Source: Tubulanus polymorphus (lineage: Eukaryota > Animalia > Nemertea). From it: a DNA stretch of 64,000 bases. Made by a program: the position numbers and the translations under genes. The DNA lies in assembly GCF_964204645.1 (NCBI RefSeq), contig NC_134032.1, positions 3,248,175 to 3,312,174 on the forward strand, written 5' to 3'. Below are positions 2,951 through 26,812 of the stretch, piece by piece (the stretch's first letter is position 1; each line of letters starts with the position of its first letter). Under the pieces are notes generated by a model. It was not told the origin of the DNA and made no database searches. It saw nothing but the letters and a program-made list of their open reading frames with translations.

Positions 2951-3327
2951 GCACAGGACGATAAATGAAGGATATTTCGTACAATTTCACTTTAAGAAGT
3001 AGATCATCCATGAATTATTTCATCGAGGCAGGAAGAAGTTATTGTCACGGAATTGACCGGTTTAGCTGCTAATAATAGGCCTAATACGTCTCGCGATTAG
3101 TTACACAATAGGATGATTCATCTGATATTTCTGTGAGGAAAAGTTTTCAATTGAAAAAATGAGAATCAAATTACGATTACAATAACTTTAACAAATAGAT
3201 GAATAAAGACGTCGATAAAGCTAGTTTATGTCACTGTTAAGATCGAAGTCAAACCGCTTCGTTTTCATTAGGCGTTCGATTATACTTGCTCACATTGTTC
3301 GAGAGAAAAATCTGAATCCGAACGACG

Positions 3328-9022: not shown

Positions 9023-9143
9023 AGTAATTAGAAAAGTGGGGTTTCATACCAGAGGGCGAGAGGGCGAGACACCACTCATCACCACAAGTAATTTTTTTCC
9101 TAACACTCATTACCACAAGTAATTTTTTTTCCTAATAAATGGG
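9023..9143 (+). repeat. Left terminal inverted repeat
   Basis: Reverse complement of 24710-24831 apart from one substitution and a 1-nt T-run difference; runs into the polB start codon. Confidence 0.95.
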
Positions 9144-12100
9144 GGAGAATGAACACCAACTAGAAAACAATAATGTCAATAAAAATCAATATTATTGTCA
9201 ATATTGTAAAAAAAACATCGATACATCTCATAAAACACGACATGAAAAAACTGCAAATCATATAAAAAATGTAATAGATTTTGAAACTCCAGAAAATTCC
9301 AATGAAAGAAAAGAACGATTAGAAAATATGAATGTGGATGAAATAAAATGTGAAGTTTGTAATGAATTTATAGTAAAAAGGAATTATAATAGACATCTCG
9401 AATCACAAAAACACCACCAAAATTTGAGTAATAATGTTTTAGGAAAAGATTATTTTGATAATAAACCTCAAAAAGTAAAAGAATCAACTTCAAAAACTAA
9501 ATCCATTTCAAATAAACCTTACATGGAAAATGTTAGAAATTATATTGATTCACTAGAAATAAAAGATACAATTGAAATCTTAGAAACATTACATAGTAAA
9601 ATTGGTCCTGCAGCTATTATATTTAGATTTTTTAAAGGTACAACAATAGAAGATTATAGTAAATTTAATGAAATAATAGAAAAAATACTAGATTTGATAA
9701 CAGATGTTGAATATCCAAAAATTAGTATCTCTGGGAAAGTAAGTTTTATAAAGTCAGAAGAAAAAATGAATTATAATATTCAAACACACTCTGAAGAAAT
9801 AATTTCAAAAACACAAATAAAAGAGAAGTTAGAAAAAATATTTAATGAATTTAAACGTCATATTGAAGAAAGATATTTTGAGGGTTCTGGCTTAACATTG
9901 AATGAAATAATATATTTAGATTTAAATGTTTATAATACAAAAAGGAATAAAACATCAAAAAGTAATAAAATGTTTAAAAATGATTCAAACTTTACAACAG
10001 AAAAGGATATTAAAGCATCATCTTATATTAAATTACCATTTACAACAAAAGCAGTAATAAATGTTCAAAATGAAGATAATAAATGTTTTCTATGGTCAAT
10101 TATTAGTTGTTTACACCAAACAGAAGATACGACGCATAGTTTTAGAATAACAAATTACCGGAAATATGAAACATTATATAAAATTGATCAATATCCAGTA
10201 ACTATAAAAATGATTCCTAAAATAGAAAAAATTAATAATTTAAAAATAAATGTATTCGAATTAATGCAATTACCAAAGACAAAAGGTGAAAATATTAAAG
10301 ATTATACATTGGAAGCTTTATATTTAACAGAATATTATGATGATGAAAATGCTATAGATTTGTTATATTACAAAAAAGATGAAAATGAACATTATATGTG
10401 GTTAAAACAAATTGATTTATTCTTTAGAACAACAGAAAGTGATCATCATCGTAAAATTTATCTATGTAGAAAATGTTTATCTAAATTTATGACTGAGAAT
10501 ACATTATTAAAACATAAAGAATTATGTGATAATAAAGATTTTTGTAAATTAATAATGCCAACAGAAAAAGATTATGAATTGAAATTTCCTAATCATAAAT
10601 TTAAAAATATTGTTCCATTTGTAATTTATGGGGATTTTGAATCGTTGAATAAAGAATTAACTGATCAAGATAGAAAAGAAATATATAACAAAAAGCAATT
10701 ATTAAAATCAATGGATAAAGGAAGTGAATTAAATGAAGATATAATTCAAGACCCACCAATCATAAATACAATTAAAAAAGTTCATCAAAGAGCTGCTGCT
10801 TATGGAATTTATATAAAATCAAATTATCCTGAATTATATGAAAGTCAATATATTTCTTTTAGAGGTGAAAATGTAGTTAATGATTTTTGTGATAAAATTA
10901 TTGAATTAGAAAGTGATTTTGCAAAATTATTAAACAAAAATAAAAGAATAGTTATGACAAAAGAAGATGAAATTGATTTTAATTATGCAACTCATTGTTG
11001 TTATTGTGAAAAACGTTTTTATTCATTTGATAAAAGAGTTAGAGATCATGATCATTTGAATTCAAAATATCGTGGAGCTGCTCATGAAGATTGCAATTTA
11101 CAAGCTAAGAAAGTTAATTTCGTACCAATATTATTTCATAATTTATCAGGCTATGATACCCATCTATTTATAAAACAATTATCGGGAAAATTGGGTGCAA
11201 TTAATCAAGAAATAGAAGAATATAATGCTATGAATGGTGTAAATGTAAGAAAATATGATTTTAAACTATTAGCTAAAACATCTGAAAATTATATTTCATT
11301 TCAATTTGGTTGCATTAGATTTTTAGATTCTTATAGATTTCTAGCAAGTTCATTAGATAATTTATCAAAATCATTAGTTGATAATGATTTTGTTATAACT
11401 CGATATTATTATCCAAATGACCAAGATTTTAAATTACTGAGATATAAAGGCGCAATTCCTTATTCATTTTATAAAACACATGATGATTTTAATGTAACAG
11501 AATTATTAAAAGATCAATTTTATGATAAATTAAAAGAGGAGTATGTGAAAGACGAAGTGTTTAATAGAACATTAAATATTTGGAACCATTTTAAGATGAA
11601 AAATCATGGCGAATTAGTTGATTTATATTTAAAATCAGATGTTATGATATTAGCTGACATATTTGAAAAATTTAGAGAAGTTAATTTGAATCATTTTAAT
11701 GTTGATCCTTGTTATTGTTATTCTAGTCCTGGTTTAACCTGGCAATGTGGTTTAAAATATACAAATGTAGAATTAGATTTATTAAAAGAACCAGATATGG
11801 TTTTATTATTTGAAAAATCAATTAGAGGTGGAATTAGTGGTGTTATGGGAGATAGGTATTTTAAAGCAAATGATGAATATAAATTATTATATATTGACGC
11901 CAATAATTTATATGGTTGGGCAATGATGCAACCTCAACCATATAAAAATTTTATATTAACAGAAGTTGAAAATGGTGATAAAACTGATTGGGAAAACGCA
12001 ATTGCGAGTTTAAAAGATGAAGCACCAATTGGTTATTTCTTTGTAGTTGATTTAGAATATCCTGAAAATATAAAGTTTAAAACAAGAAACTTACCTTATT

Positions 12101-14203
12101 GCCCAGAACATTTAACTGTAGATGATAGTTATTTAAGTGAATACCAGAAGAAAATAAAACCGAAAGATCATGTTTTTACAGAAAAATTAATACTTACTCA
12201 AAATGATAAATACAATTATATTGTTCATTATAGAATGTTAAAATTTTATCTAAAACAAGGAATGAAATTAAAGAAAGTACATAGATATATTGAATTTAAT
12301 CAATCGAAGTGGTTAGAAAAATATATAGATTTCAATACTCAACAGAGAACCATATCAAAAACAGATTTTGAAAAAGATTTCTTCAAATTAATAAATAATA
12401 GTTTTTATGGTAAAACATGTGAAAATATTAGAAATAGAAATGATATTGAATTAGTGAATAATTCTGAAAGATTAAGACATTTACAATCAAGTCCTAGACA
12501 TTTAGGAAATAAAAGATTTGAAGATTATTTAACAGCAGTTAAATTAAAAAGAACATCATTAAAATTTAATAAACCTATATTTATAGGTTCAACTGTTTTG
12601 GAAATATCAAAATTATTGATGTATAATTCTTATTACAATGTTTTGCAGCCACTTTTTGGGGAAAAACATATAGAAATATTATATTTTGATTCTGTAACGG
12701 CTGACACCCCAATATTATTAAAATGTAATAATAAAATATTGGTAAGAAGAATTTCAGAAATAATTCCTAATCAAAATAAATCTTATATTTCATATGGTGA
12801 AAAAGAACTAATACAAATAAATGGTTTAATGGATGTTTGGACAAGAAATGGATGGAAAAAATTAAAGAATATTATTAGACATAAAACAAATAAGAAAATC
12901 TATAGAGTTAGAACTAAATTAGGATTTGTAGATGTTACTGAAGACCATAGTTTGATTAAACTAAATGGTGATGAAATAAAACCAACTGATATAAAAATTG
13001 GAGATGAATTATTACATAAAAGATTTTTCCCAAGAATGAATCATATGTCATTTGATGAAATAATTAATAATACTTATAATATAGAACCCGAAACATTGGA
13101 AGAAAAAGAATATTTTATCAAAGGATTTTTCATGGGTGATGGTTCAGCAGGTGTGTATAATTATGTTAGTGGAACTAAATATTGTTGGTATTTATGCAAT
13201 CAAGACTTAAAATTATTAGAAAGAATTACGAAATTCTGTGAAGAAGTTTATTCACATAAAACATTTAGAATCATGGATGTTATGAAATCATCAGCAGTTT
13301 ATAGAATACTTATAAATAATCCTAAAGATTTTGCTATAGAATATAATGATGAATTCTATATTCATGCAATAGTGAAAAGTAATACTTCGACAAAAGAAAA
13401 GATAGTTCCAGATTATGTATTGAATGCAAAAAAATAATTTAAGAAAATGGTTCTTCATTGGATTATATGCAGCAGATGGTTCAAAAAGTTTCAAAACAAT
13501 ATCTTTAGCTCAAAAAGGAAAAGTTGCTATATCAGGATTGAATATATTATGCACTTCATTAGGATTTAATATGAATATTGGATTGATTAAATCTAAACCA
13601 AATTGCTTTAATTTAAGCCATGTAGAAAATGAGTTAACTGAAGAAGTTAAAGATTTATTTGAAATATATAACCCAACGGATTATGTTTATGATTTATCAA
13701 CTGAAGATGGTACATTTAACTGTGGATTTCCATTAATAGCGGTCAATACTGACGCCTACATACTAAAAATCAAGACAAATGACATAACAAAAGACTTAAA
13801 AACATTAAAACATCATTTTGATTTTAGCAATTATCCTAAAGATCATGAATTGTTTAGCAATGATAATAAAAAGATTCCTGGTAAATTTAAAGATGAATTA
13901 GGGGGTGATGAAATGATTGAATTTGTTGGGATAAGAAGTAAAATGTATAGTTACAGAACAAAAGATCATGAAGCTAAAAAGTTAAAAGGAATAACAAAAC
14001 ATGTGGTTGATAAACATATAGAATTTCAAGATTATATAAAGTGTTTATATAAATCAATTGTAATGAAACACAAAATGAATTGTTTAAGATCAGAAGATCA
14101 TGAGATGTACATTAATGAAGTTGAAAAAACTAGTTTAAATCCATTTGATGATAAAAGGCATATTTTAGATGATGGTATAAAAACATTACCTTATGGTTAT
14201 TAA
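9139..14203 (+). CDS. Protein-primed family B DNA polymerase with N-terminal zinc fingers, endonuclease VII-like insert and an intein; +1 frameshift at A7 (13428-13434)
   Basis: YGDFES (ExoI), FHNLSGYD (ExoII), YIDANNLYG (motif A), KLINNSFYGK (motif B), YFD//TDA (motif C split by intein), KLKGI; CCYC...RDHDH...GAAHEDCN EndoVII-like motif. ORF 13424-14203 supplies the C-terminus. Confidence 0.95.
12691..13747 (+). mobile_element. Intein with LAGLIDADG homing endonuclease in PolB motif C
   Basis: Starts SVTADTPIL, block B VDVTEDHSL, endonuclease motifs GFFMGDGS and GLYAADGS, block F VYDLSTEDGTF, ends AVN followed by +1 Thr; excision restores YFD-TDA. Confidence 0.93.
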
Positions 14204-15513
14204 AATGGATCTATATCATCAAACTCGAAATCACTATTGGCTTCTTCATTTTCATTTAATTGTTCAGGTTCTTCTTCCATTCCATTTTTCTCATTTAAAT
14301 AAAGTTCTATCTTGTTCCACATTTCATCTCGCTCTCTTTGTTTCTTTTTGTTTGTTAATTCATCAAATGGAATTATAATATCTAGGTTTAAATAATTTAC
14401 AATCTTATTTAAAAAGAATTCATAATTTATTGAATCTGTTATTCTATTTTCCAAATGATACATTAATATTTGTTTAAATATTTTTTTTATATTTTCCATA
14501 TCTTCTTCTGTTAATTTAGGTTTTTCATAATAATCGTTAAATAATAAATATAAATACATTTTCTTTTGTTTTGTGTTAAATGTTGGTGGAATAATTGTTT
14601 TTATAATATCTTTTTTAGTTATTTCACCATTTTTATTTTCTATTATTTTCATTTTTTCAAGCCATTGCATATATTCTGGTGTATGATCTTCTATAGAAAA
14701 TATTTTAAAAATTTCATCTAGATAATTTAATTTTGGTTCTATGAGAAAATTTCTAGTTTTTTCTTCACCCCATAAATTCTTTTGCCATCCACATTCAACA
14801 CAAAATAACACAGTACCTTCTTGCCTTAAGGTCGCATAAATACATTGTGGGCATTTTTGTTTATAATTTACTAGTAATAGATCTTCATTAAGCTCTTGGT
14901 ATTTTCTTACGTTTTCTTTATGTTTTATTGTTCTATTATGTAGATTTGAATTACTTGTTGTAATAATCAATTTACAATATTTACAATAATATGTTTTTCT
15001 TGTTAATTCATTATATTGTTTTTCTAACTTTTCAACTGTTTCTTCATTATCTGGTAACGTTTTCTCATATTTTATTTTTTCTAATAAATTATTTTTTCTT
15101 GCATTGAATTCAGTTTCAAATTTATTAGAAATTTTATCTTTATGTACTTTACGAAATTGATGATTCTCCCAATCTTCTATATTTTCAGGGTTATATTTTA
15201 TTCGACAAGGCTCACAGAAATAATCGTTTATATTATCCTTATCATAGAATAAGAAAGGTCTTTTCCAAATAATTTCAGGTTCAACTTCAACAGAATTATT
15301 ATTACTTTCGTAACTGTCAACATTATCTATTAAGTTATTATTTTTACACTTCTCTAAATGTTTTTTGAAATAATTTCTAGAGAATGTTTTATTACAATTT
15401 GGACAGTTTATTTTAGGGGGTTTATAATTTTCATCATGTTTTTTCATATGTCGAGCCATATTACTTTTTCTTAGAAGTTCACCACAAATTTCGCATGCTA
15501 TCTTCTCATCCAT
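14200..15513 (-). CDS. Multi-zinc-finger protein with a C-terminal poxvirus VLTF3 (A2)-like late transcription factor domain
   Basis: Four Cx2C...H fingers, then zinc ribbon CPQC-x13-CVECG and IFKQIL...SINYEFFLNKI...DEMWNKI, matching by eye the VLTF3 pattern (vaccinia A2 IFKHLV...[11 protein letters not shown], recalled from memory). Confidence 0.75.
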   Translation of the reverse strand: MDEKIACEICGELLRKSNMARHMKKHDENYKPPKINCPNCNKTFSRNYFKKHLEKCKNNNLIDNVDSYESNNNSVEVEPEIIWKRPFLFYDKDNINDYFCEPCRIKYNPENIEDWENHQFRKVHKDKISNKFETEFNARKNNLLEKIKYEKTLPDNEETVEKLEKQYNELTRKTYYCKYCKLIITTSNSNLHNRTIKHKENVRKYQELNEDLLLVNYKQKCPQCIYATLRQEGTVLFCVECGWQKNLWGEEKTRNFLIEPKLNYLDEIFKIFSIEDHTPEYMQWLEKMKIIENKNGEITKKDIIKTIIPPTFNTKQKKMYLYLLFNDYYEKPKLTEEDMENIKKIFKQILMYHLENRITDSINYEFFLNKIVNYLNLDIIIPFDELTNKKKQRERDEMWNKIELYLNEKNGMEEEPEQLNENEEANSDFEFDDIDPF

Positions 15514-15581
15514 TTATTAAGGAAAAATTTTATTAAAATTAATTTTTAGTGATGAGCGGTAATTTTTTTATGTTATAAATA

Positions 15582-16331
15582 ATGGTAGAATTAAAAGAAT
15601 ACAGAATATTTGTTGATTCTAGAAAACTTACAAATTATAAATCACATAATTTACTAATACAATTAGATAGAGAATTCAAGAATTGTGTAGATTTAAAATT
15701 AGTAAATATAAGTTTATGTAACTCATTTTATAATATAACAGCTAAAAGTCTTGAACATTTATTTTTTTCAATCAAGAGTAAGGATAAATGGAATTATCTA
15801 TTTTTAAAACCAGGATTATATAATTTAAATACATTAGCGCAGGAAATTAATAAAAAAGCTCGGATCAAATTAGGTAGTGATGCTGAATTTAACATTAGAT
15901 TTTTGAAAAGTGATAATTCTAATAAAATGAAGATAAGGTTAGCTCATAATGAAAAATATCAATTTTCAGTTAAAAAACCTATAGCTAAACTATTAGGAAT
16001 TACACCAGATAAATATTATTCAAATGTTGATACTACACCAAATATAATACCTTTTACACACTTTTATATTTATTGCAATTTAATCGATCCTACAAAAACA
16101 TTCGAAGCAACTAAAGATATAACTTGTAATTCTGGTTTACTAATTTTACCAATAAAGAATGTTAAACAATTTGGAACTCAAATAAATTATAATTTAGCTG
16201 AATGTGATTTCAAACCTTGTATTCCTCAATTTAATAATTTTAAATTAGAAATAAGAAATCATAATGGATACTTAATTGATTTGAATAACTTTCCTGTAAT
16301 TTATGAATTAGTTATGAGATGTAAAGAGTAA
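15582..16331 (+). CDS. Minor capsid (penton-like) protein
   Basis: IFVDSR at the start, NSFYNI, PGLY, C-terminal NGYLIDLNNFP: pattern and size typical of Polinton/virophage minor capsid proteins. Confidence 0.75.
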   Translation: MVELKEYRIFVDSRKLTNYKSHNLLIQLDREFKNCVDLKLVNISLCNSFYNITAKSLEHLFFSIKSKDKWNYLFLKPGLYNLNTLAQEINKKARIKLGSDAEFNIRFLKSDNSNKMKIRLAHNEKYQFSVKKPIAKLLGITPDKYYSNVDTTPNIIPFTHFYIYCNLIDPTKTFEATKDITCNSGLLILPIKNVKQFGTQINYNLAECDFKPCIPQFNNFKLEIRNHNGYLIDLNNFPVIYELVMRCKE

Positions 16332-16347
16332 TTTTTCACCTATATAA

Positions 16348-16671
16348 ATGAATATAACTGTTGGACCGAGTATATGTTTTGGGTTTGATTTTAAACGTGA
16401 GAAAGATTATATCAAAAATATTGCATTTTCTAATGAAACAACATTTGAGTATGAAACAACAATAGATAAAGAAACTTTAAATGTAGAAAAGATTACTAAT
16501 TTAATTAGAGAATCTTTAAGATTTTATGAATTAGATGAAGATTTTATAATCGATGATATTAAGAAAATAATAATTGAAATATATACAAATGAAACTAGTA
16601 ATAAAATAAATGTTGAATTAATCATAAATAAGTTAACTAAATATTTTGAAGATAGTAATTTTTTTGATTAA
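16348..16671 (+). CDS. Hypothetical acidic viral protein
   Basis: 107-aa ORF preceded by the element's TAAATG motif, packed between neighbours. Confidence 0.65.
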   Translation: MNITVGPSICFGFDFKREKDYIKNIAFSNETTFEYETTIDKETLNVEKITNLIRESLRFYELDEDFIIDDIKKIIIEIYTNETSNKINVELIINKLTKYFEDSNFFD

Positions 16672-16674
16672 TAA

Positions 16675-16896
16675 ATGAGTGATAATAAGTGGATAATAAC
16701 TGGATTATATAATGGCGCATTACTATCAGTTGGAACGGTTGGTTATTCAATGGTATTAAAAAAAGTATTCAAAATGGGAAGTGTTAATGTTGATAGATTT
16801 GATATAAATGATATTTTAAAGTTAACATTAGCAGTTACTTTATCTAATTTAACTATTGATTATTTGGAAAAACAAAAATATATTCCTCCCATATAA
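16675..16896 (+). CDS. Small hydrophobic viral protein
   Basis: 73 aa, two hydrophobic segments, TAAATG start. Confidence 0.7.
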   Translation: MSDNKWIITGLYNGALLSVGTVGYSMVLKKVFKMGSVNVDRFDINDILKLTLAVTLSNLTIDYLEKQKYIPPI

Positions 16897-16921
16897 ATGT
16901 GTAATTTTTTTTATTAAATAA

Positions 16922-17344
16922 ATGGCTTCTGCAATTATAACTATTATAGGATCGGCAATTGTTAACGCTTTAGCATTTACTGGTGGTGGTTATTTATTTA
17001 AACATATTGATAAAAATAGTTCATTAGGAGAACAAAGAAGACATAACTTAGCGTTAGAGAAATACAATAAAGCTGCAGAAGAATATAGAGAAAAGAGGCA
17101 AAACTATATGGATTACATCAATAAAGAATTATATGATCAGAAGATTTCACATAGAGATTTTCAATCAGTTGATGATGCAATGAGTTTATATAACGCAGTA
17201 ACAAATAAAGAAAAATTACATCTATACAAACCTAAATTTTCAGATTATTATACCCCAAGTAAAGAACAACAGAAATATGAAATAATATGGATTTTAGGTG
17301 GAACAGTTATTGTTATATTTGTTGCTTATAAGTTTACTAATTAG
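16922..17344 (+). CDS. Viral membrane/coiled-coil protein
   Basis: Hydrophobic N-terminus (AIVNALAFTG), RRHNLALE coiled region, C-terminal TM; TAAATG start. Confidence 0.75.
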   Translation: MASAIITIIGSAIVNALAFTGGGYLFKHIDKNSSLGEQRRHNLALEKYNKAAEEYREKRQNYMDYINKELYDQKISHRDFQSVDDAMSLYNAVTNKEKLHLYKPKFSDYYTPSKEQQKYEIIWILGGTVIVIFVAYKFTN

Positions 17345-17363
17345 TAATTTTTTTTCTAAATAA

Positions 17364-17798
17364 ATGGAAGATAAAGTTGATAGTATTGATATTATTCCTC
17401 ATGATATAAATAAAACTAAATTAAAAACATATTTAGAAAAACAAATATTAGAATTTGAAAGTGACTTAAAGATAAAAAAGAAAAAATATTTAAAAAGTAA
17501 AATTATATATTATTTGATTATAAGTGGTTCGGTTACAATTAGTTCTGTAATAACATTTTTAGCAATATTCAGTCCATTAACACCTTTAGCTATATCAATT
17601 GGTGTATTAGGATTAAGTTCAAGTGTTTTAACTGGTATAAGTTCAAAATTTAATATAAAAAGTAATAAAGAAAAAATTAAAACTAATATAAAAGAAATAA
17701 ATAAATTAAAGAACACACTAGATTATATCATAAGTTTAAATGGTCATATAACAGTTGAAGAACAAGATAAATTATTAAAAGAATTAATAAATTATTAA
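17364..17798 (+). CDS. Viral two-TM protein
   Basis: 144 aa, central hydrophobic hairpin flanked by coiled segments; TAAATG start. Confidence 0.7.
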   Translation: MEDKVDSIDIIPHDINKTKLKTYLEKQILEFESDLKIKKKKYLKSKIIYYLIISGSVTISSVITFLAIFSPLTPLAISIGVLGLSSSVLTGISSKFNIKSNKEKIKTNIKEINKLKNTLDYIISLNGHITVEEQDKLLKELINY

Positions 17799-17815
17799 TT
17801 TTTTTAATTATATAA

Positions 17816-19204
17816 ATGGTAGATAGTTTTCCAAAAGCTTTCCAATATAATAAATCAATTAAATATAATATTCCGGCAATAGATTTTAATAAAGATATTA
17901 CATATAGCAATGAAGTTTTAAATTCATTAATTGATTTATATATTTATGTTACTGAAACTAATAATTTTAATGCAAAGATGGAAAATATATTTCATGTATA
18001 TTTAATTAATTTTAAAAAATTGAAAGATGAAAAACAATGGTTATTAAAATCTAATATGAAGTATTGGCAGAATCAATTAAATTTTGCTGTTTATTGTGCA
18101 ACAACAGGATGTGGAATTAGTTGGAATGATCATTTGAATAATTCTAAATATAAATTAATTCAAAGTTTATTTAGATTTCATACATACTTTCAAATCAGAA
18201 TAATATTAAATGAATTAGAGTGCGCTTTACCAGGATCTAGGTATTTTAAAGAATTAGATAATAATATTAATTTATCTAAGTTTTATAAGATTTGTAATGA
18301 ATTTAATATAGATATAAATAATTCTGATTTTAGAACAAAAATTGGAACAATAAGATCACTTCCTTGCCCTAAAAAGATTGCAGAATATTGTGCACTTCCC
18401 ATACCATCTAATAGTTTTTATAATATCTATAATAATAAATTAGGTTATGGTAAAATAGAAACAAAGGATTTAGAAACATTAAATTTCAATAAATTACCGA
18501 AATTTTATGATAATTTAAAACAAGAAAACAATAATGGTTGGGTATATTTTATTTTAGAAAATAGTGAAGGTTTTACTAAATCAGGTATAGAAAGAATAAA
18601 TCAATCTATTAGAACTTATTTGATTTGTATTCTAGGATCACAAGTTGAAACAAGATCACCGATAATTGGAAATTTGAATACATCATTCGATACACAAAAA
18701 CAATTTAAAGTATTATTTGAAGATTCCATACATAATGATAAAAATAGATCGATTCCAGAAAACATTATAAGATATCAAAATTATTTAGATAAATCTCATG
18801 TAAGACTTAATTATTGTATAGGCCCTAATCTATTAATTATTTCTAATGATTTAGTATTAAAGATGGGAAACATAATTGGTTATAATAATCTAATTAAAAC
18901 TGCAACAATAAATAATTCATTTGGGTTAAATGATATAAATAAAAAGATTATTACTGCTCCAAAATTAATGGAAGGTGAAAAAAATAAAAAACACATTCAA
19001 TCAACAGAAACTAAAACTAATAATATTAAATTAAATAATGATTCTAAAATAAAAGATTACAATACATCAGAAAATAATAGAACTGATAAAATTCAACATG
19101 ATATAATTAAAACTGATAATGATAATAAATCACATGAAAATACTAAATTAGCTATAACTTGTATAGGAATTGTAATCGGAGGAATATTATATTTTAAATT
19201 TTAA
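17816..19204 (+). CDS. Hypothetical viral protein with C-terminal TM anchor
   Basis: 462-aa ORF with WQNQLNFAVYCATTGCGIS motif; TAAATG start. Confidence 0.8.
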   Translation: MVDSFPKAFQYNKSIKYNIPAIDFNKDITYSNEVLNSLIDLYIYVTETNNFNAKMENIFHVYLINFKKLKDEKQWLLKSNMKYWQNQLNFAVYCATTGCGISWNDHLNNSKYKLIQSLFRFHTYFQIRIILNELECALPGSRYFKELDNNINLSKFYKICNEFNIDINNSDFRTKIGTIRSLPCPKKIAEYCALPIPSNSFYNIYNNKLGYGKIETKDLETLNFNKLPKFYDNLKQENNNGWVYFILENSEGFTKSGIERINQSIRTYLICILGSQVETRSPIIGNLNTSFDTQKQFKVLFEDSIHNDKNRSIPENIIRYQNYLDKSHVRLNYCIGPNLLIISNDLVLKMGNIIGYNNLIKTATINNSFGLNDINKKIITAPKLMEGEKNKKHIQSTETKTNNIKLNNDSKIKDYNTSENNRTDKIQHDIIKTDNDNKSHENTKLAITCIGIVIGGILYFKF

Positions 19205-19220
19205 TTTTTTCATTATGTAA

Positions 19221-20664
19221 ATGGATGTAGAAGGTGGAGAAGATATTGGAATGGATGACATGGGAAATGATAATGAAGGATATATTGATAATGATTATAA
19301 TAATGCAGGCGCTAATATTGATAATGATGAATCAGCATATAATTCTAATTTAACTACACCTCAATATATTGACAAAGCACGTTCAAAGATAAGTATTGAA
19401 AATGAAGTACCAGAAATAACAGAAAAAGAATACAATTATAATGAAATTATTCATGAATTTAAACCAATATTAAAAAAATCTGGTTTCAATATAACAGATA
19501 ACGGTATGGATAAATTAGCAAAAGATTTGAAATATTTAAATGGTGATTATTATTGGAAATTGAAAGGCGACTATTATTTTAAGATTTCAAATCTTAAAAG
19601 TAGCAGTAATGATAAAATAATAACACAATCAACTTCTAATTTATTAGAACAATCTAGAATTAAGAAAATCAATAATGATGTTATAACTGATGTTACAAAA
19701 AAAGAAAGAACTGTTAATTTTAAAGAATTTAAACAAAGAAATGCTAAATTTTTTGATATAATTAATGCAAATTTAAGACAAAAAAAAAATTCCTAAAGAA
19801 GTTATTAATTCCAAAACTAGTAAACCTAATTCAAGCGAAGTTCAAACTGAAAAACTTTTACCAAATGGATTACTTGATGCAACAGATCAACAATTAGAAG
19901 ATTTAAATATATTTTCTGATAAAACAATTAGAGAAATTATTAGTATAAGAAATGAAACTGATAAAATTGCACATAATAAAAGTATAAGAGATATTAAAAT
20001 TAACAATTTAGAAAAAGAATTAACTGATAAAAATAAAGAAATAGAACAATTAAAGTCTGATTTAGATCGTCAAGTAATTGATGAAATAGAATATAGGCAA
20101 AAAGAATCACGTTTAGAAAAAGAAATAGATGATTTAAAATATAACAAAGAATTACAAAAAGAAGAAATAGATACATTGTTAAAATCATATGATTATAATA
20201 TTAATAGATTAAAAGTTATTTTTAAAGATTTGTTGATTAAACCAAATTCTGAAATATCATTAAAAGACAGAATAAGATTATTATTTAAATTAGAAGGAAT
20301 AACAATTCTTTCAATTCTAACAGCTGTAACTATGTTATTTACAACAATTGGTTTAGCAATATCAAATGCTTTGAAATCTACTTCTACTCCCACTCCCAAT
20401 AAACCAGATAAACCTCCAGGTAATAATTCTATACAAGATAAAGTTAAGGATGGTTTAAAGAAATTAGCAAAATATTTATGGGAACTATCAAAGAAATCTG
20501 CTGCAGCATTGCCAGGAGTTATTGCTTCAATTGTTGGTTTTATATTGAAATCTGCTGGGAATATTCTTAACTTTGCTGCTGAACATATTATTTTATTTTT
20601 AATCACAGTTGTAAGTGCTATTATTTTTGGGTTAGTAAATATGATATCAAAAAATATCAAGTAA
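19221..20664 (+). CDS. Coiled-coil/multi-TM viral protein, +1 frameshift at A10 (19780-19789)
   Basis: The frame of ORF 20176-20664 is stop-free back to ~19790; removing one A joins it to ORF 19221-19796. No separate TAAATG before 20176. Confidence 0.8.
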
Positions 20665-20710
20665 ACCATGATATCAAAAAATATCAAGTAAACCATGATA
20701 TCAAAAAATA
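20641..20710. repeat. 27-bp tandem duplication (~2.5 copies) over a stop codon
   Basis: ATGATATCAAAAAATATCAAGTAAACC repeated. Confidence 0.9.
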
Positions 20711-20735
20711 AATAATTAATTTTTTTGTTAAATAA

Positions 20736-21851
20736 ATGAGTGGGAGTTATATAAGTCCTTCGAAGAATCATAGAATATCTAATGCTATTAAAGCAGAAAG
20801 ATCACATCATATAATTACTCATAACCCTTCAAATATTAATCCCGATGAAACTTTATATGTGAGGATTCCTCGATTAACACAAAATACTTTTTATGTTCCA
20901 AATAGTATTTATTTATCAGCCGATATAAAAGTAACTGGTCATGATAATAATTATGTTGTCGATAATGTTGGAAGATATTTGATTAAAAAGTTAACAATAA
21001 AGATTGGTCCAGAAACAGTTTTCTCATTAGATGATTATAATTTATTTATGTATAATAAAGATTTATGGTTAACTAAAGAAAATAGAAATAATATGATATT
21101 TCAGGGTATTCAATCGGAAAACCATAATAAATTAAGATCTGAAGCCAATAACGCAGTAGTAAATAATAGCGTAGATAATTTGATTAAAAAGATTTATGGA
21201 AGTAAATATAAAATTCCATTAGACTTTGAATTGATAAATAATAATGCACCTTTATATAAATACGCAATTCAAGAAGATATTATATTTGAGATAACATTTG
21301 CTCCTGTAAATGAAATTGTATTATCTAGCGTTGTTAAAGATATGGGTTATAAATTATCGAATATATGTTTAGAATATAACACAGTAACTAATGAAAATAT
21401 TGCTAGCACAATTCAAACTCAATACAATCAAGGATTTTCATTATTATATGATTATATTGATAAATTTAAAACTGTAACTATTAATGCAAATGATGAAATA
21501 ATTAATGAGAATATTAACTTTCCTAGAAGATCTATTAAAGGTATATTAATGTTTTTTACCATTGCAACATATTCTAATGGCGCAATAAATGTTGATAATT
21601 ATTATAATCCTGAAATAACAAAAGTAGAAATAACTATCGAAGGAATAGCAAATAAAATATTTTGTCAAGGAATGAGAATGATTGATCAATGGCCAGAAAT
21701 TAGAAAACATTTTATGAATGAAAAAGTAAAATCATCTGAAAATTGTAATATTAATCAAATTGATTATTATACCGGCAATAAATATGCATTATGGTTAGAT
21801 TTTAGAACAACAGAGGATAATTCATTACATGGTTCTGGAATATATGGATGA
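20736..21851 (+). CDS. Major capsid protein (double jelly-roll), probably C-terminally truncated
   Basis: ITHNPSNI...LYVRIP, VDNVGRYLIKKL, YYNPEITKVEITIEG, LWLDFRT...LHGSG resemble invertebrate Polinton MCPs; stops three codons after LHGSG. Confidence 0.75.
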   Translation: MSGSYISPSKNHRISNAIKAERSHHIITHNPSNINPDETLYVRIPRLTQNTFYVPNSIYLSADIKVTGHDNNYVVDNVGRYLIKKLTIKIGPETVFSLDDYNLFMYNKDLWLTKENRNNMIFQGIQSENHNKLRSEANNAVVNNSVDNLIKKIYGSKYKIPLDFELINNNAPLYKYAIQEDIIFEITFAPVNEIVLSSVVKDMGYKLSNICLEYNTVTNENIASTIQTQYNQGFSLLYDYIDKFKTVTINANDEIINENINFPRRSIKGILMFFTIATYSNGAINVDNYYNPEITKVEITIEGIANKIFCQGMRMIDQWPEIRKHFMNEKVKSSENCNINQIDYYTGNKYALWLDFRTTEDNSLHGSGIYG

Positions 21852-21921
21852 GTTGAAAAATATTAAAAGATCAAAATTACTATTTAGATTACAACACCCA
21901 TTTAAATATGAATTTATTTAA
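21841..21921 (+). pseudogene. Orphan 3' gene fragment, possibly the packaging ATPase C-terminus
   Basis: Reads YMDELKNIKRSKLLFRLQHPFKYEFI* with no TAAATG start; resembles from memory the tail of Polinton A32-like ATPases. Confidence 0.4.
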
Positions 21922-21929
21922 ATTCAATT

Positions 21930-22152
21930 AGTTTGTTAATCTAGTTGAATTCTAGTTATTGGTAGTTGTAACAAAAATCAAATAGATTTAACAATATTTT
22001 AACTAGCTTGTTAATCTATTTTAATTCTAATTACATTCTAGTTGAATTCTAGTTGTTAGTAGTTGAAACAAAAATCAACTAGATTTAACAATATTTCAAC
22101 TAGCTTGTTAATCTAGTTGAATTCTAGTTACATTCTAGTTAAATTCTAGTTG
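21930..22152. repeat. CTAGTT/AACTAG-rich intergenic repeat, ~100-bp unit duplicated
   Basis: Many CTAGTTGAATTCTAGTT units in direct and inverted arrangement. Confidence 0.8.
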
Positions 22153-22185
22153 CAACATCACACAATTAATTTTTTTGTTATATAA

Positions 22186-22791
22186 ATGGGAGGTGAAAAG
22201 AAAATAAAATCTAAAAATGGTGATGTTCCAATTGAAAAAACTTTAGATGATTTAGGAATAACAGAAACAAAATTAACTCCAGATGATGGTGCTTTAAATA
22301 ATGTTACAACAAATAATAATTATGAATATTATCTTTATTGTAAACATCAATTAGAAATATTAATAGCATCTGGAAAATGTAAAAATTTTGTCGGTAAAAA
22401 TTTAACTTATAATGAATTAGACACAATGAAATCAGATGAAATTATTAGATTATTTAAGATTTATGAAGCCGCGAGAACAGCTAGAATTAATGACGCGATA
22501 TCAGAAAATGTAGTAAAAGGTTATAGTAAATTATGTAATTATATACTACCAATTGAAAATGAAAATAGATTATATTCTGATTTAAAAAATGATTATTTAG
22601 TTATGACTGAATTAAATAAATGGATTGGATATTTATCATTTCAATTAGGTGGATTTATGACATTATTATCAACTGGAGTTATAACATTTTCAAATATTGA
22701 AAGTAAAGATATTTCTATAATAAATGAGCGAGGTGAAAGAAGTGAAGGAATTAACTGTGAAGAAAAAACCGAGAACTCAGAAACAAATTGA
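22186..22791 (+). CDS. Hypothetical viral protein
   Basis: 201 aa, TAAATG start, hydrophobic segment near the C-terminus. Confidence 0.75.
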   Translation: MGGEKKIKSKNGDVPIEKTLDDLGITETKLTPDDGALNNVTTNNNYEYYLYCKHQLEILIASGKCKNFVGKNLTYNELDTMKSDEIIRLFKIYEAARTARINDAISENVVKGYSKLCNYILPIENENRLYSDLKNDYLVMTELNKWIGYLSFQLGGFMTLLSTGVITFSNIESKDISIINERGERSEGINCEEKTENSETN

Positions 22792-23092
22792 ATGGTCTCG
22801 GCAATTAGGAATTAAATCACAAGAATATAAAAAAGCTGTAAAAGAAAAAATAAGTAATAAAAATGTTAATAAAAATGGTGAAAATATTGTTATTTCTACT
22901 CCTTCTGATAATAGAATATTTGATAAATATTTATATTTTACAGTTGGATTTGTAATTGTATTCATTTTGATTGGGTGTAATTGGTATAAGAAATCAAATA
23001 AAATTCATGATATTAGTAATTCTGAACCAACTGCTATCAAAAATGAAAGTACTTCTGAAATTCCAAAATTGATAATAAAAAAAATGGATTAA
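22724..23092 (+). CDS. Basic single-TM viral protein
   Basis: 122 aa, KKPRTQKQIEW basic N-terminus, TM YLYFTVGFVIVFILIG; TAAATG start inside the previous gene. Confidence 0.7.
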   Translation: MSEVKEVKELTVKKKPRTQKQIEWSRQLGIKSQEYKKAVKEKISNKNVNKNGENIVISTPSDNRIFDKYLYFTVGFVIVFILIGCNWYKKSNKIHDISNSEPTAIKNESTSEIPKLIIKKMD

Positions 23093-23455
23093 TATTTTAG
23101 AAAAAAAGCAAAAAAAAAAATAATTGAATATCTCACTACTTTTGTCTATCACTGTGGAGCAATTAAATTGTCCAGATAAGTCATTTCGGATTCTAGATAT
23201 TCATTATTTTATTAATTTATTTTGTTTTTATTTGAATATTTGAATTTGAATTTGTTAATCAATTAACATAGTAATTGATTACTAATTTGATTAAAAATTA
23301 TATCATAATGAAGTTAAAAATACATAATTCATTTATCAGTTTTCATTCTTACATTCTTTTCATTCGGAATAATCTATAATTTCAAATTTCACATATTTTT
23401 TTAGCACCAACAACATTTACTTAGGTGTTTTAGCTAAGTATATAAGGTAATTCAT

Positions 23456-23720
23456 TCAACCACTGGAGTAGCTCTGGCCAGCAGAGGCATTTTGAAAATG
23501 CACCTTCGTCCACTCTCCGGGTTTCTCCTTCGGTTTCGAATTTCGAGGTTGGTAGAAATTACATTAGGCGCCTTTAATATAATGTGATTTCTACCAATCA
23601 TTGAAGGAGATCCCGGTTGACGTGGGTCGCCGGGGGTGTAAGTAGAAATGACGGGGGATAAGCGTCCCGTGGCGCCTTTCAATAATGGGATGCTTATCCC
23701 CTGAAAACTCTGTAGGTTGA
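23456..23720 (+). ncRNA. Predicted structured non-coding RNA of the element
   Basis: Closing stem 23456-69/23707-20, long interrupted hairpin 23499-23640, 19-bp hairpin 23652-23703; ~12 G-U pairs on + strand; shared loop GGCGCCTTT(C)AATA. Confidence 0.65.
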
Positions 23721-24075
23721 GGATAGGGCAATTTTGCTAAAACTTACCGTAAAAACATTGAAATATTCCTTTTAATCACGAGAGAATGATGACTATCCTC
23801 CTGTCGTCACGGCCGAGCTAATTTAAATAAACCTCGTTTTCAGCAACTAATGAAAACGCAGTAATTCAATACCAGCTAACTGGTTTGTGTGTGTTGTATG
23901 TACTGCGTGCTTATTATATAACAACAACGTTGTGCAACACCTGTTTGATTGATCAATATTCAAATAAAGCACTCTCTTATAATAATATGTAACAGATGTA
24001 CTGTATGATTATAGTTGTTTATAAAACGACTAAGGTCATTTTGGATTCTAGATATTCATTATTTTTATTTCTTAT

Positions 24076-24402
24076 TTAATCAACAATTTCTAAATCATGA
24101 TGACCGTCTTCATTTTTCCCATGATATATTATTTTAAATCCTACTAAATCTTTCAATTCCTCCATACTCAATGAAACCCATTTATCGGGTAAAAACACTT
24201 TAAATTCTCGTGATGTACTAACATTACAGTAGCTTAAATTAGCTGATTCTTTCTCTCCATATTTAGTTTTTATCTTTTCTAATTTCAATATTTTATGTTC
24301 AATTTCTTTTGTAACATCAACTAACTTTTTTATTTCAAATTGTTTTTTTGCTGGTTTTATTCTGTTATTTATTGTTGCTAAGAATGCTTTTCTATCTCCC
24401 AT
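24076..24402 (-). CDS. Hypothetical basic viral protein
   Basis: 108 aa, preceded by a copy of the TIR motif CTCATCACCACAAGTAAT...CCTAATAAATG. Confidence 0.7.
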   Translation of the reverse strand: MGDRKAFLATINNRIKPAKKQFEIKKLVDVTKEIEHKILKLEKIKTKYGEKESANLSYCNVSTSREFKVFLPDKWVSLSMEELKDLVGFKIIYHGKNEDGHHDLEIVD

Positions 24403-24510
24403 TTATTAGGAAAACAAATTACTTGTGGTGATGAGTAATTACTTCCCTTGTATATAACAAGCTCACAGCATCTATTTATCCGGGTACAGTTGACACACGC
24501 GCAGCTGTTG

Positions 24511-24714
24511 TTACGCGCACTCACTGTTTATGTATGTCACAATTTTACTACGTAATATTTCTAAAATTTCAATTGCATCTTTTATTTCTAATGAATCAAT
24601 ATAATTTCTAACATTTTCCATGTAAGGTTTATCGATGTATTTTTTACAATATGGGCAATAATATTGATTTTCATTAACATCACTTTTTTCTGTTTGGAAC
24701 TCACTGTCTCCCAT
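24511..24714 (-). CDS. Short paralogue of the pPolB N-terminus
   Basis: NQYYCPYCKKYID-KPYMENVRNYIDSLEIKD matches PolB aa 1-28 joined to aa ~126-155. Confidence 0.65.
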   Translation of the reverse strand: MGDSEFQTEKSDVNENQYYCPYCKKYIDKPYMENVRNYIDSLEIKDAIEILEILRSKIVTYINSECA

Positions 24715-24831
24715 TTATTAGGAAAAAAAAATTACTTGTGGTGATGAGTGTTAGGAAAAAAATTACTTGTGGTGATGAGTGGTGTCTCGCCCTCTCGCCC
24801 TCTGGTATGAAACCCCACTTTTCTAATTACT
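24710..24831 (-). repeat. Right terminal inverted repeat
   Basis: Mirror of 9023-9143, followed by TSD AACGGC. Confidence 0.95.
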
Positions 24832-25447: not shown

Positions 25448-26812
25448 TCAAATATCTCGCACGGCAAGCGACGCGAATGAGTAAACTAAATGCAAAACAC
25501 CGACGCCTACAAAAATATACGGATATCCGAGAACCGGCTGAAGCGCCCCGATTATCAAGAGGCAAACATTACCGACGATTCGCGATACAGCGGCATCCAA
25601 CGCGTAAATCGTTTCGTAATTGCCGTCGAATTTCCGGTCGGCGACGTCCGAAAGCCACGAAAAATAGAAACTGTTCAAAAGCGCGAACGCCACAGTGCTG
25701 ACGAAATGCGGACCGAAAGACTGCCAGATGTTACCGATGAACCGATACCAGACGAACGCGCAGGCGATCGCCAGACAGTAGACTGTTAGATAAATCCATC
25801 GATAGCGACGGGTGACCGCGACGATTATTCCGAAGAGGAAATTCGTGCACAAAAAGAAAATGGCCGCCGATACGAGTAAAACGGTGGCGAGTTGCCAATT
25901 ATCGGCTTTTGAAAAACGCGAGATCAGCAACGGCGCAAAAACTACGTTCATATTTGCACTCGTGACAAAAAGGCATTTCAGACCGATCAACACTAACGTC
26001 TGTGCGTCTGTCAACATCGATTTTACGACGCTGCTCTGCAGAATTTCTTTCACAATCTCGTCTGCAGGTGTAGACGCCCGATTGTTATCGATTTTAATGA
26101 AAGCGCGAATTACCATTATCACCACCGCTACCGCGAATAGTATCCAGAACGGCACAGCGCCATCTAGCGATTTTATTTCGTATAAACGTCCGCCGTATCC
26201 GAACGCTGTACCGGCGAATATGCAGCTGTAAACAAGGTTTAACGCTAAAACGCGACCGGACTCCCTAGCGACGAATGCGATGGCGACCATCGTCGAGCCG
26301 GCGTTCAGAACGACGGCGCGGGAAAACCCGAATACGAAGTTCAGAATCGCCAGCGACCACCAGTGACGCGACGCGAACACGGAGGAGAGAATAGCGACCA
26401 GCGCCGACACCAGTCCGAACCAGAACGGTAAAACGTGGCCGTATCGAAAAGCGAGACGTCCTGAGACCAGGTTTCCGACGATGAGTCCCGTGTCGTAGAA
26501 GACTTTAGTAACGGCGACGCTGATGCCGATATGAGGATGGTCGGATACGCGCGTTCGGTTGTTGTAGAATCCGTCTTGTATGTCGGCGACCTCGGCCATC
26601 AACGTCCCGCACCCTGTGTTTATAACGAGCGACGCGGCGCTTACGATACACACTATCAGTACCGGAGTCGCCCGCGAGCGAACGTCGCATTTCGTCTGCG
26701 TTTCTCCGCCCTTCGTATTTTCGTCGTCGGTCAGAGATCCGTAATCCGGGTCACCGATGGTTGACGGATGGTTTTCGAACAAACGTTCTTTCATTTCGAC
26801 TTCGTTGCTCAT
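25448..26812 (-). CDS. Intronless MFS transporter, SLC18 (vesicular amine transporter)-like
   Basis: About 12 TM segments; GRLAFRYGH (MFS motif A-like), YETIYAL...VLGYPY resembles SLC18 TM11-12; first ATG at 26812; AATAAA on minus strand at 24913-24908. Confidence 0.8.
   Translation of the reverse strand: MSNEVEMKERLFENHPSTIGDPDYGSLTDDENTKGGETQTKCDVRSRATPVLIVCIVSAASLVINTGCGTLMAEVADIQDGFYNNRTRVSDHPHIGISVAVTKVFYDTGLIVGNLVSGRLAFRYGHVLPFWFGLVSALVAILSSVFASRHWWSLAILNFVFGFSRAVVLNAGSTMVAIAFVARESGRVLALNLVYSCIFAGTAFGYGGRLYEIKSLDGAVPFWILFAVAVVIMVIRAFIKIDNNRASTPADEIVKEILQSSVVKSMLTDAQTLVLIGLKCLFVTSANMNVVFAPLLISRFSKADNWQLATVLLVSAAIFFLCTNFLFGIIVAVTRRYRWIYLTVYCLAIACAFVWYRFIGNIWQSFGPHFVSTVAFALLNSFYFSWLSDVADRKFDGNYETIYALDAAVSRIVGNVCLLIIGALQPVLGYPYIFVGVGVLHLVYSFASLAVRDI

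What the first reader, a model, noticed from the sequence alone, without database searches (positions are those of the whole stretch)
23456..23720. Predicted structured RNA with twin palindromic (GGCGCC) loops in the viral non-coding region
Seen: a GC-rich island in AT-rich DNA. Nested helices 23499-508/23631-40, 23509-13/23622-26, 23517-21/23612-16, 23524-33/23601-10, a 20-bp apical stem 23547-66/23580-99 and a second 19-bp stem 23652-70/23685-703, all closed by 23456-69/23707-20. About 12 non-Watson-Crick pairs in these helices are G-T on the + strand, pointing to selection on a + strand RNA. The two stems differ in sequence but their loops are nearly identical (GGCGCCTTTAATA, GGCGCCTTTCAATA) and begin with a self-complementary hexamer. 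TATATAAG lies ~10-15 nt upstream. Inference: kissing-loop or multimerising RNA (phi29 pRNA analogy), VA-RNA-like dsRNA decoy, or small-RNA precursor. I know of no described ncRNA of this kind in Polintons.
Basis: partly seen in the sequence, partly recalled or inferred. Interest (0 to 1): 0.87.

Follow-up and report, generated by a model that had tools for sequence, protein, structure and literature searches.

The report
Twin-loop Pol III RNA in Polinton
A virus-like transposon (Polinton) in an animal genome carries a 265-base stretch predicted to fold into a tight RNA, likely made by the host's RNA polymerase III, whose two matching loops are predicted to pair with each other and which most likely acts as a decoy against the host's double-stranded-RNA defences; I found no description of such a gene in these elements.

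Summary
The structure is real: + strand z = -11.1 against -5.6 on the - strand, with 13 G-U and 0 A-C pairs. The RNA is best placed at 23471-23735. TATA then sits at -32 and TTTT follows the terminal stem, with no A/B boxes: the layout of a U6-type (type 3) Pol III gene. The two GGCGCC loops are near-identical on unrelated stems and are predicted to kiss (-14.1 kcal/mol). There is no Rfam match. Four of four related Polintons with that flank lack the RNA; one has a kinase gene in the slot. It is therefore an accessory gene, not a packaging RNA, and read depth argues against a host MITE. Best guess: a VA-RNA-like dsRNA decoy closed or multimerised by loop kissing (0.4). It is not a VA RNA family member. 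Expression and function are untested.

The parts
9023..24831 (.). Endogenous Polinton/Maverick copy with AG...CT termini, long TIRs and a 6-bp target-site duplication (9017-22, 24832-37). Deletion derivative: integrase and most of the ATPase are absent.
   Evidence: gap against L001; L001 rve and Pox_A32
9139..14203 (+). Protein-primed DNA polymerase B, split into two ORFs (9139-13437, 13424-14203); the split appears by eye to lie in an intein-like insert (not tested)
   Evidence: PF03175 E 2.5e-18; ORFs
20736..21851 (+). Double jelly-roll major capsid protein, shorter at the C-terminus than its closest relatives (371 against 414-415 aa)
   Evidence: vaccinia D13 and PBCV-1 capsid, Foldseek probability 1.00
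23180..23222 (+). Left 43-nt direct repeat bracketing the RNA cassette
   Evidence: D14, 86% identical; 4 reads skip the 855 nt between the repeats
23230..23251 (+). Three octamer-like sites at -241, -233 and -227, a possible distal element; weak, the motif is common in AT-rich DNA
   Evidence: 3 of 11 exact sites in the element; octamer consensus recalled
23405..23423 (+). Position where a proximal sequence element (PSE) would lie (-66 to -48); identity untested
   Evidence: position from PMC8362101 passages; region shared by both subfamilies by read depth
23439..23445 (+). TATA box, -32 to -26 from the inferred start
   Evidence: no difference listed inside it
23471..23735 (+). Predicted non-coding RNA, about 265 nt, 97 pairs of which 16 are G-U
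   Evidence: ends inferred from subfamily junctions
23471..23486 (+). 5' strand of the terminal stem (pairs with 23708-23729)
   Evidence: an equivalent stem of different sequence in the second subfamily (read by eye)
23488..23650 (+). Long arm: 39 bp in six helices, with a small side hairpin (23536-46) before stem 1. Includes an internal run of four T at 23490-93.
23547..23599 (+). Hairpin 1: 20-bp stem and 13-nt loop (23567-79) starting with GGCGCC
23652..23703 (+). Hairpin 2: 19-bp stem and 14-nt loop (23671-84) starting with GGCGCC
23708..23729 (+). 3' strand of the terminal stem, with a 6-nt bulge
23732..23735 (+). T4 run 2 nt after the terminal stem, the predicted Pol III terminator; a second T4 lies at 23770-73
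   Evidence: hairpin-aided T4 termination in PMC9278858 passages
24035..24077 (+). Right 43-nt direct repeat bracketing the cassette

Best explanation
This is a predicted ~265-nt non-coding RNA gene in an accessory slot of a multi-copy animal Polinton, likely transcribed by host RNA polymerase III from an upstream U6-type promoter, whose two GGCGCC loops are predicted to pair and which likely works as a double-stranded-RNA decoy in the manner of adenovirus VA RNA. Shown: the fold, the + strand G-U bias, the twin loops on unrelated stems, TATA at -32, T4 right after the terminal stem, no A/B box, and absence from related Polintons. Shown in part: a second subfamily with a different but still complementary terminal stem. 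Inferred: Pol III starts at about G23471 and stops at 23732-35 (about 0.75). Inferred: the loops form a 6-bp kiss (about 0.6), either within one molecule, folding it into a compact two-helix bundle, or between molecules. Inferred and least certain: the wobble-interrupted helices, none longer than 20 bp, bind dsRNA sensors or Dicer without triggering them.
For: TATA at -32 together with a T4 within 8 nt of the end is found at 0.14% of 31,000 element positions (post hoc). Type 3 promoters have TATA at about -30 and no internal boxes (PMC8362101 passages). A-box scans (up to 2 mismatches) and B-box scans (up to 1) found nothing. A hairpin next to T4 aids Pol III release (PMC9278858 passages). In one search the subfamily contig of X2 (record 12) joins 23469 to 23547 and diverges again at 23713. 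By eye, the loose ends printed at these two places pair at 22 of 23 positions, 5 as G-U, and end at the same T run. Read depth upstream of the start (674 at 23417-63) is well above that over the RNA's 5' part (380 at 23464-510), so the promoter region is better kept than the RNA's 5' strand. No difference is listed in either loop or in the TATA box. The loop-loop duplex is -14.1 kcal/mol. The return path stem 1 + kiss + stem 2 is 45 bp against a 47/51-nt proximal arm, which fits a kiss within one molecule. VA RNA is a wobble-rich Pol III decoy with terminal, central and apical domains (PMC7589676 passages). Polintons are linked to adenoviruses (PMC6431247 passage). The same slot holds an accessory kinase gene in L001.
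Against: No transcript was seen. This copy has an internal T4 at +20 to +23, just after a possible small hairpin, which could stop Pol III early. Of 6 listed differences in stem 1, two (23587, 23590) break a pair unless the partner also changed, and no partner change is among the rows shown (158 rows hidden). The loops of the second subfamily were seen only as an absence of listed differences, firmer for loop 1 than for loop 2. The 5' and 3' loose ends come from different runs and are linked only through one contig's junctions. No PSE could be compared with host snRNA genes. TATA-like and octamer-like words are common in 24% GC DNA. The VA RNA GGGU-ACCC stem is absent. The loops share 7 nt beyond the palindrome, which a decoy role does not explain. 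Nothing tests the decoy function itself.
Confidence: 0.4

Rival explanations
1. The same Pol III RNA, but the twin loops are repeated binding sites for a host or helper-virus protein, or antisense handles on an mRNA (EBER-like sponge or guide). The palindrome would then be incidental.
For: The loops share 13 nt, 7 more than a kiss needs. EBER1 binds L22 at three stem-loops and EBER2 pairs with viral RNA (PMC4378190 passages). Loop 2 has an 11-nt complement in a + strand ORF at 19559-69; 9 of 600 simulated elements reach 11 nt.
Against: Both loops start with a GC-only palindromic hexamer. The arm lengths fit a loop-loop contact. The antisense match is post hoc, holds for one loop only and is weak.
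Confidence: 0.22
2. A Pol III primary transcript that is cut into microRNAs or siRNAs, like foamy-virus or MHV68 Pol III pri-miRNAs.
For: Two long hairpins in one Pol III-like unit; such viral precursors exist (PMC4378190 passages). A 23-bp terminal stem in the second subfamily could be a Dicer substrate, as in VA RNA.
Against: Stem 1's 3' arm differs at 5 of 20 positions between subfamilies while no loop change is listed, the reverse of the usual miRNA pattern (own knowledge). Stem 2 is only 19 bp. No miRNA family reaches the Rfam threshold.
Confidence: 0.13
3. A DNA-level or mRNA-end structure: an ssDNA hairpin used in replication, or a 3'-end signal between the convergent genes 22724-23092 and 24402-24076.
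For: It lies between convergent genes. It also folds as DNA (z -7.0). Relatives carry palindromes between convergent genes.
Against: Those palindromes are AT-rich single hairpins that fold equally on both strands. This one is GC-rich, branched and strand-biased. The terminal stem and junction do not form with DNA parameters. TATA and T4 frame it exactly.
Confidence: 0.08
4. A host-derived insertion (SINE, MITE or captured host RNA gene) with no role for the element.
For: A GC-rich island in a cassette bracketed by 43-nt direct repeats; a few reads lack the cassette. It is absent from related Polintons.
Against: Read depth over the RNA (380-786) is not above the flanking element (338-835) at 80% likeness. 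No A/B box, no second copy in the window, no Rfam family. The fold is kept across two diverged subfamilies. An old capture of a host type 3 promoter remains possible.
Confidence: 0.07
5. A packaging RNA that multimerises on the capsid, like phi29 pRNA.
For: Loops able to pair between molecules.
Against: Relatives with 71-77% identical capsid proteins and their own A32-type ATPase have no such RNA beside these genes. pRNA belongs to a different motor family (own knowledge).
Confidence: 0.04

Closest known systems
Adenovirus VA RNA I/II (PMC7589676, PMC4378190; passages seen)
   Same: Predicted Pol III RNA of a related virus group; 5' and 3' ends paired in a terminal stem; four-U terminator; wobble-rich long helices around a central junction.
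   Different: 265 against ~160 nt; no internal A/B boxes; no GGGU-ACCC stem; upstream TATA at -32; two apical hairpins with identical palindromic loops; invertebrate host; no Rfam match.
EBV EBER1/EBER2 (PMC4378190, PMC8362101; passages seen)
   Same: Viral structured Pol III RNA with upstream promoter elements and several stem-loops that can act as repeated binding sites.
   Different: EBERs use hybrid promoters with A/B boxes; no sequence or Rfam similarity; much longer helices here.
Host type 3 Pol III genes: U6, 7SK, RNase P/MRP RNA, Y RNA (PMC8362101; passages seen)
   Same: TATA near -30, no internal boxes, T-run terminator.
   Different: No match to any of these RNA families; the gene sits in a viral element; PSE identity untested.
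Foamy-virus and MHV68 Pol III pri-miRNAs (PMC4378190; passages seen)
   Same: Pol III unit with two hairpins.
   Different: Here the stems vary and the loops are kept; extra long arm and terminal stem; no tRNA-like leader seen in Rfam.
Palindromic kissing-loop RNAs: OLE, GOLLD, ROOL (PMC12286853; passages seen); retroviral dimer-initiation loops and phi29 pRNA (recalled)
   Same: Self-complementary loop sequences that can bridge helices or molecules.
   Different: Those are bacterial or phage RNAs, or parts of genomic RNA; none is a stand-alone Pol III RNA of a Polinton; two copies of one palindromic loop in one small RNA.
Polinton/Maverick elements, adintoviruses (PMC8502044, PMC11296320, PMC6431247; passages seen)
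   Same: pPolB, double jelly-roll capsid, TIRs, 6-bp target duplication; relatives carry rve integrase and A32 ATPase.
   Different: No non-coding RNA gene appears in the passages found; genes here start at TAAATG.

Membership tests
Adenovirus VA RNA | Internal box A and box B | tested here: not met
   No A box with up to 2 mismatches and no B box with up to 1; the best long B-box match has 3 mismatches (consensus motifs recalled)
Adenovirus VA RNA | Complementary GGGU-ACCC stem in the central domain | tested here: not met
   GGGT at three places, ACCC absent; feature from PMC7589676
Adenovirus VA RNA | Terminal stem and four-U terminator | tested here: met
   stem ends inferred
Adenovirus VA RNA | Match to the family model | tested here: not met
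   Rfam: no hit at gathering threshold in the window; only weak unrelated hits at E up to 10
Adenovirus VA RNA | Binds and inhibits PKR or Dicer | not testable with these tools
   needs an assay
Type 3 Pol III gene | TATA box near -30 | tested here: met
   TATATAA at -32 from 23471; the start site itself is inferred
Type 3 Pol III gene | Proximal sequence element near -50 to -65 | tested here: inconclusive
   Region shared between subfamilies by depth, but no host snRNA promoter was available for comparison
Type 3 Pol III gene | Distal element near -200 to -250 | tested here: inconclusive
   Three octamer-like sites at -241 to -227, but 38 one-mismatch sites in the element
Type 3 Pol III gene | First run of four or more T is the terminator | tested here: inconclusive
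   T4 follows the stem, but this copy also has an internal T4 at 23490-93; none at the equivalent place in the second subfamily (by eye)
Type 3 Pol III gene | Transcribed by Pol III | not testable with these tools
   no RNA run was available
Viral Pol III pri-miRNA | Conserved arms, variable loops, 21-23-nt products | tested here: not met
   Arms vary and no loop change is listed; products not testable
phi29-type pRNA | Present with the packaging genes throughout the family | tested here: not met
   Absent in L001, L002, L004 and L022
Host SINE or MITE | Many more copies than the surrounding element; A/B boxes or own TIRs | tested here: not met
   Flat read depth; no boxes; the whole genome was not available
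Polinton/Maverick (the carrier) | pPolB, jelly-roll capsid, TIRs, 6-bp TSD | tested here: met
Polinton/Maverick (the carrier) | rve integrase and packaging ATPase | tested here: not met
   Missing from this copy by deletion; present in the syntenic relative L001

The most novel reading that the evidence does not exclude
A Polinton whose protein genes are wired for a poxvirus-like helper's polymerase has added a separate U6-type gene read by host Pol III from the integrated copies. Its RNA locks itself, or polymerises, through twin palindromic kissing loops into a dsRNA-presenting particle that tunes antiviral sensing during helper infection. It would be the first Polinton non-coding RNA gene, an independent counterpart of VA RNA, and a natural two-helix kissing-loop RNA architecture in an animal.
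Probability: 0.25. Interest if true: 0.9.

Novelty: new variant of a known kind. Interest (0 to 1): 0.72.

Why it matters
Viral Pol III RNAs are few and, in the review passages read, come from vertebrate adenoviruses, herpesviruses and retroviruses (PMC4378190). One in a Polinton of an invertebrate, using an upstream promoter rather than a tRNA-type one, would show that relatives of adenoviruses evolved such an RNA separately, and that Polintons carry RNA genes that protein-based annotation misses. The RNA is short, has natural variants in one genome, and makes sharp predictions about its start, its end and its loop pairing. It offers a direct handle on how Polintons deal with host dsRNA defences, and a compact target for structure work.

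Tried and rejected
Rfam: no family. No whole genome is held for this window, so copies and host snRNA promoters could not be compared. Sequencing runs: no RNA holder listed, which is no evidence either way. The partner changes in the two stems of the second subfamily remain unseen, because 158 rows were not shown. Capsid relatives in viral contigs: none. Loop patterns in viral contigs: 3 loci that are short tandem arrays by their spacing, unrelated, and none in two further scans. Loop pattern in genome contigs: none. Phage records: one chance 33-nt hit. Of 44 capsid-bearing metagenome loci, none matches the RNA by blastn. A 160-nt fold scan of 2,232 windows ranked only strand-symmetric inverted repeats above or beside it; most loci are too short to reach the slot. 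Avoidance of T4 inside the RNA is not significant (shuffle mean 1.1 runs, observed 1). The DNA downstream (23736-24034) and upstream folds equally on both strands. The protein atlas did not answer. Earlier notes of this scan hold nothing like this sequence. No covariance model was built, for lack of homologous sequences.

Full report
OBSERVATION. Across its seven helices there are 13 G-T pairs and no A-C pair. A G-T pair on one strand reads as A-C on the other, so this bias favours a structure on the + strand. The + strand folds to -129.9 kcal/mol (z -11.1) and the - strand to -92.4 (z -5.6). The island is 49% GC in an element of 24%. The two loops differ by one inserted base, a match with chance of at most 2e-7, while their stems share only 6 of 19 bases in register. 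The hexamer occurs nowhere else in the element. Rfam gives no family, either at the curators' thresholds for the whole window or among weak hits.

THE CARRIER. The island lies in an element at 9023-24831 with AG...CT ends, long inverted repeats and a 6-bp target duplication. It encodes a protein-primed polymerase, split into two ORFs, and a double jelly-roll capsid protein. Against its closest relative L001 (77% capsid identity, same gene order) this copy lacks the capsid's C-terminal part, the integrase and most of the ATPase. It is a deleted Polinton provirus. A flanking host gene has its named relatives in a ribbon worm. In the DNA run X5 the region has depth 149-835 from 1,934 million letters. 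The host contig alone is 16.7 Mb, so single-copy depth cannot exceed about 116, and the family is multi-copy. No single-copy control was laid.

THE ENDS OF THE RNA. One search shows a second subfamily, in contigs of X1, X2 and X3 (one study) and in reads of X5 (another study). It follows the window up to 23469, differs until 23546, follows it again, and differs from 23713 until the T run at 23732. One contig (X2 record 12) carries both junctions. Read by eye, the loose ends printed at the two junctions are complementary at 22 of 23 positions, 5 of them G-U, and the pairing starts at the first divergent base and ends at the T run. The two ends come from different runs, so their joining rests on that contig. 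In the window, 23471-23735 folds with an equivalent terminal stem (23471-86/23708-29; -127.4 kcal/mol, z -9.9). I therefore place the RNA at 23471-23735.

PROMOTER AND TERMINATOR. With that start, TATATAA lies at -32 and four T follow the stem after 2 nt. Both together occur at 0.14% of 31,000 element positions (a post hoc figure). No A or B box was found (consensus recalled). Type 3 Pol III promoters have TATA, PSE and DSE about 30, 50 and 200 nt upstream and no internal boxes (PMC8362101, passages). A hairpin close to a T4 aids termination (PMC9278858, passages). Read depth is 674 just upstream of the start and 380 over the RNA's 5' part, so the upstream DNA is better shared between subfamilies than the RNA's own 5' strand, as an upstream promoter predicts. 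Three octamer-like sites lie at -241 to -227, but such words are common here. The PSE could not be tested. Against this reading, the window's copy has an internal T4 at +20, which may attenuate it. By eye the second subfamily has no such run there.

VARIATION. Of the 40 differences shown (158 more were hidden), 18 fall in the RNA. Against the window's partners 8 keep a pair, 6 are unpaired and 4 break a pair unless the partner changed. Those at 23611-23632 belong to the subfamily whose 5' strand differs, so they are not a fair test. In stem 1, 4 of 6 keep the pair and 2 do not, with no partner change among the rows shown. None is listed in either loop or in the TATA box. For loop 1 the only X2 contig there is of the second subfamily, so a change would probably have been listed; for loop 2 it could be hidden. 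True two-sided covariation is thus seen only for the terminal stem.

RELATIVES. Of 44 capsid-bearing loci from metagenomes, none matches the RNA. Four reach the slot after the 122-aa gene (L001, L002, L004, L022) and none has a GC island there. L001 has a deoxynucleoside kinase gene in it. Strong hairpins in relatives are strand-symmetric inverted repeats. Pattern scans of viral and prokaryotic collections and of phage records found nothing related. The RNA is an accessory of one lineage, in an 855-nt cassette between 43-nt direct repeats. Its read depth is not above that of the flanks, which argues against a host repeat family.

MECHANISM. I commit to a host-Pol III transcript that folds into a terminal stem, a three-way junction, a long arm ending in hairpin 1, and hairpin 2. 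The loops are predicted to form a 6-bp kiss (-14.1 kcal/mol for any pairing of the two). Stem 1, the kiss and stem 2 add to 45 bp, close to the 47/51-nt proximal arm. If stem 1 turns back at its side hairpin, the loops could meet within one molecule; being palindromic, they could also link molecules, as palindromic loops do in OLE and GOLLD (PMC12286853, passages). The most likely use of about 97 wobble-interrupted pairs in a viral Pol III RNA is that of VA RNA: binding dsRNA sensors or Dicer without firing them (PMC7589676, passages). This last step is analogy only. The protein genes start at TAAATG, the poxvirus start element (PMC4542343, passages). That suggests a helper virus transcribes them, while the RNA gene would be read by the host from integrated copies. 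Rivals are a repeated-site sponge or guide (0.22), a small-RNA precursor (0.13), a DNA or mRNA-end structure (0.08), a host insertion (0.07) and a packaging RNA (0.04).

KNOWN KINDS AND NOVELTY. It may work like VA RNA but is not a member: boxes, tetranucleotide stem and family model all fail. Searches pairing Polinton terms with non-coding RNA, Pol III, VA RNA, small RNA and kissing loop (listings seen; also 34, 38, 52) showed no paper on a Polinton RNA gene. The adintovirus paper has no occurrence of 'noncoding', 'VA RNA' or 'polymerase III' (PMC8502044, term search). The passages found in the entomopoxvirus PLV paper describe none (PMC11296320). PMC11346459 was seen as passages only. The library lacks most subscription journals, and no supplements were read, so an earlier mention cannot be excluded. 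Earlier notes of this scan hold no look-alike. One note agrees on poxvirus-type gene starts in another genome, and another reports a group I intron in a Polinton, a different kind of RNA.

VERDICT. A real, selected RNA structure (about 0.9). Probably a type 3 Pol III gene (about 0.75). Loop kissing likely (about 0.6). The full decoy model stands at 0.4. New variant of a known kind; interest 0.72. The main gaps are expression, full covariation across copies, and function.

Noticed in passing
window 9139-24714, gene starts; L001, L002: 12 of 13 gene starts checked carry a T-tract followed by TAAATG, as do 11 of 11 checked in L001 and 3 of 3 in L002. TAAAT is the poxvirus transcription start element (PMC4542343 passages).
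   Followed up: partly
window 23180-23222 and 24035-24077: 43-nt direct repeats bracket the RNA cassette; 4 reads from 3 starts skip the 855 nt between them. The cassette may be gained or lost as a unit.
   Followed up: partly
window 19559-19569: 11 consecutive bases complementary to loop 2 inside a + strand ORF; 9 of 600 simulations reach this length. Weak and post hoc.
   Followed up: partly
L001 10340-10981: A deoxynucleoside kinase gene (PF01712, E 1.7e-31) occupies the slot that holds the RNA in the window.
   Followed up: yes
L002 ~3735-3825, L003 ~3090-3180, L004 ~3180-3250: Long AT-rich palindromes between convergent genes in related Polintons, possibly transcript-end signals.
   Followed up: no
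window 24395-24730: The right end repeats the start of the polymerase gene and its upstream motif in inverted orientation, and carries an ORF (24076-24402) that lies elsewhere in L001.
   Followed up: no
window 22900-23228 and 24075-24300, run X1: Summed contig depth is mostly about ten times higher over the flanking genes than over the cassette in X1, but not in the DNA run X5. The kind of run is not on record; unexplained.
   Followed up: no
window 23786-23885: Many copies replace these 100 bases with a short stretch (88 reads in X5), so the DNA downstream of the terminator is dispensable.
   Followed up: no
window 21901-22160: Tandem repeats of about 97 and 22 nt fill the place where relatives have integrase and ATPase genes.
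   Followed up: no
window 25448-26812: Intronless host MFS transporter ORF; its named relatives (42-44%) are from the ribbon worm Tubulanus polymorphus, so the host is likely a nemertean.
   Followed up: partly
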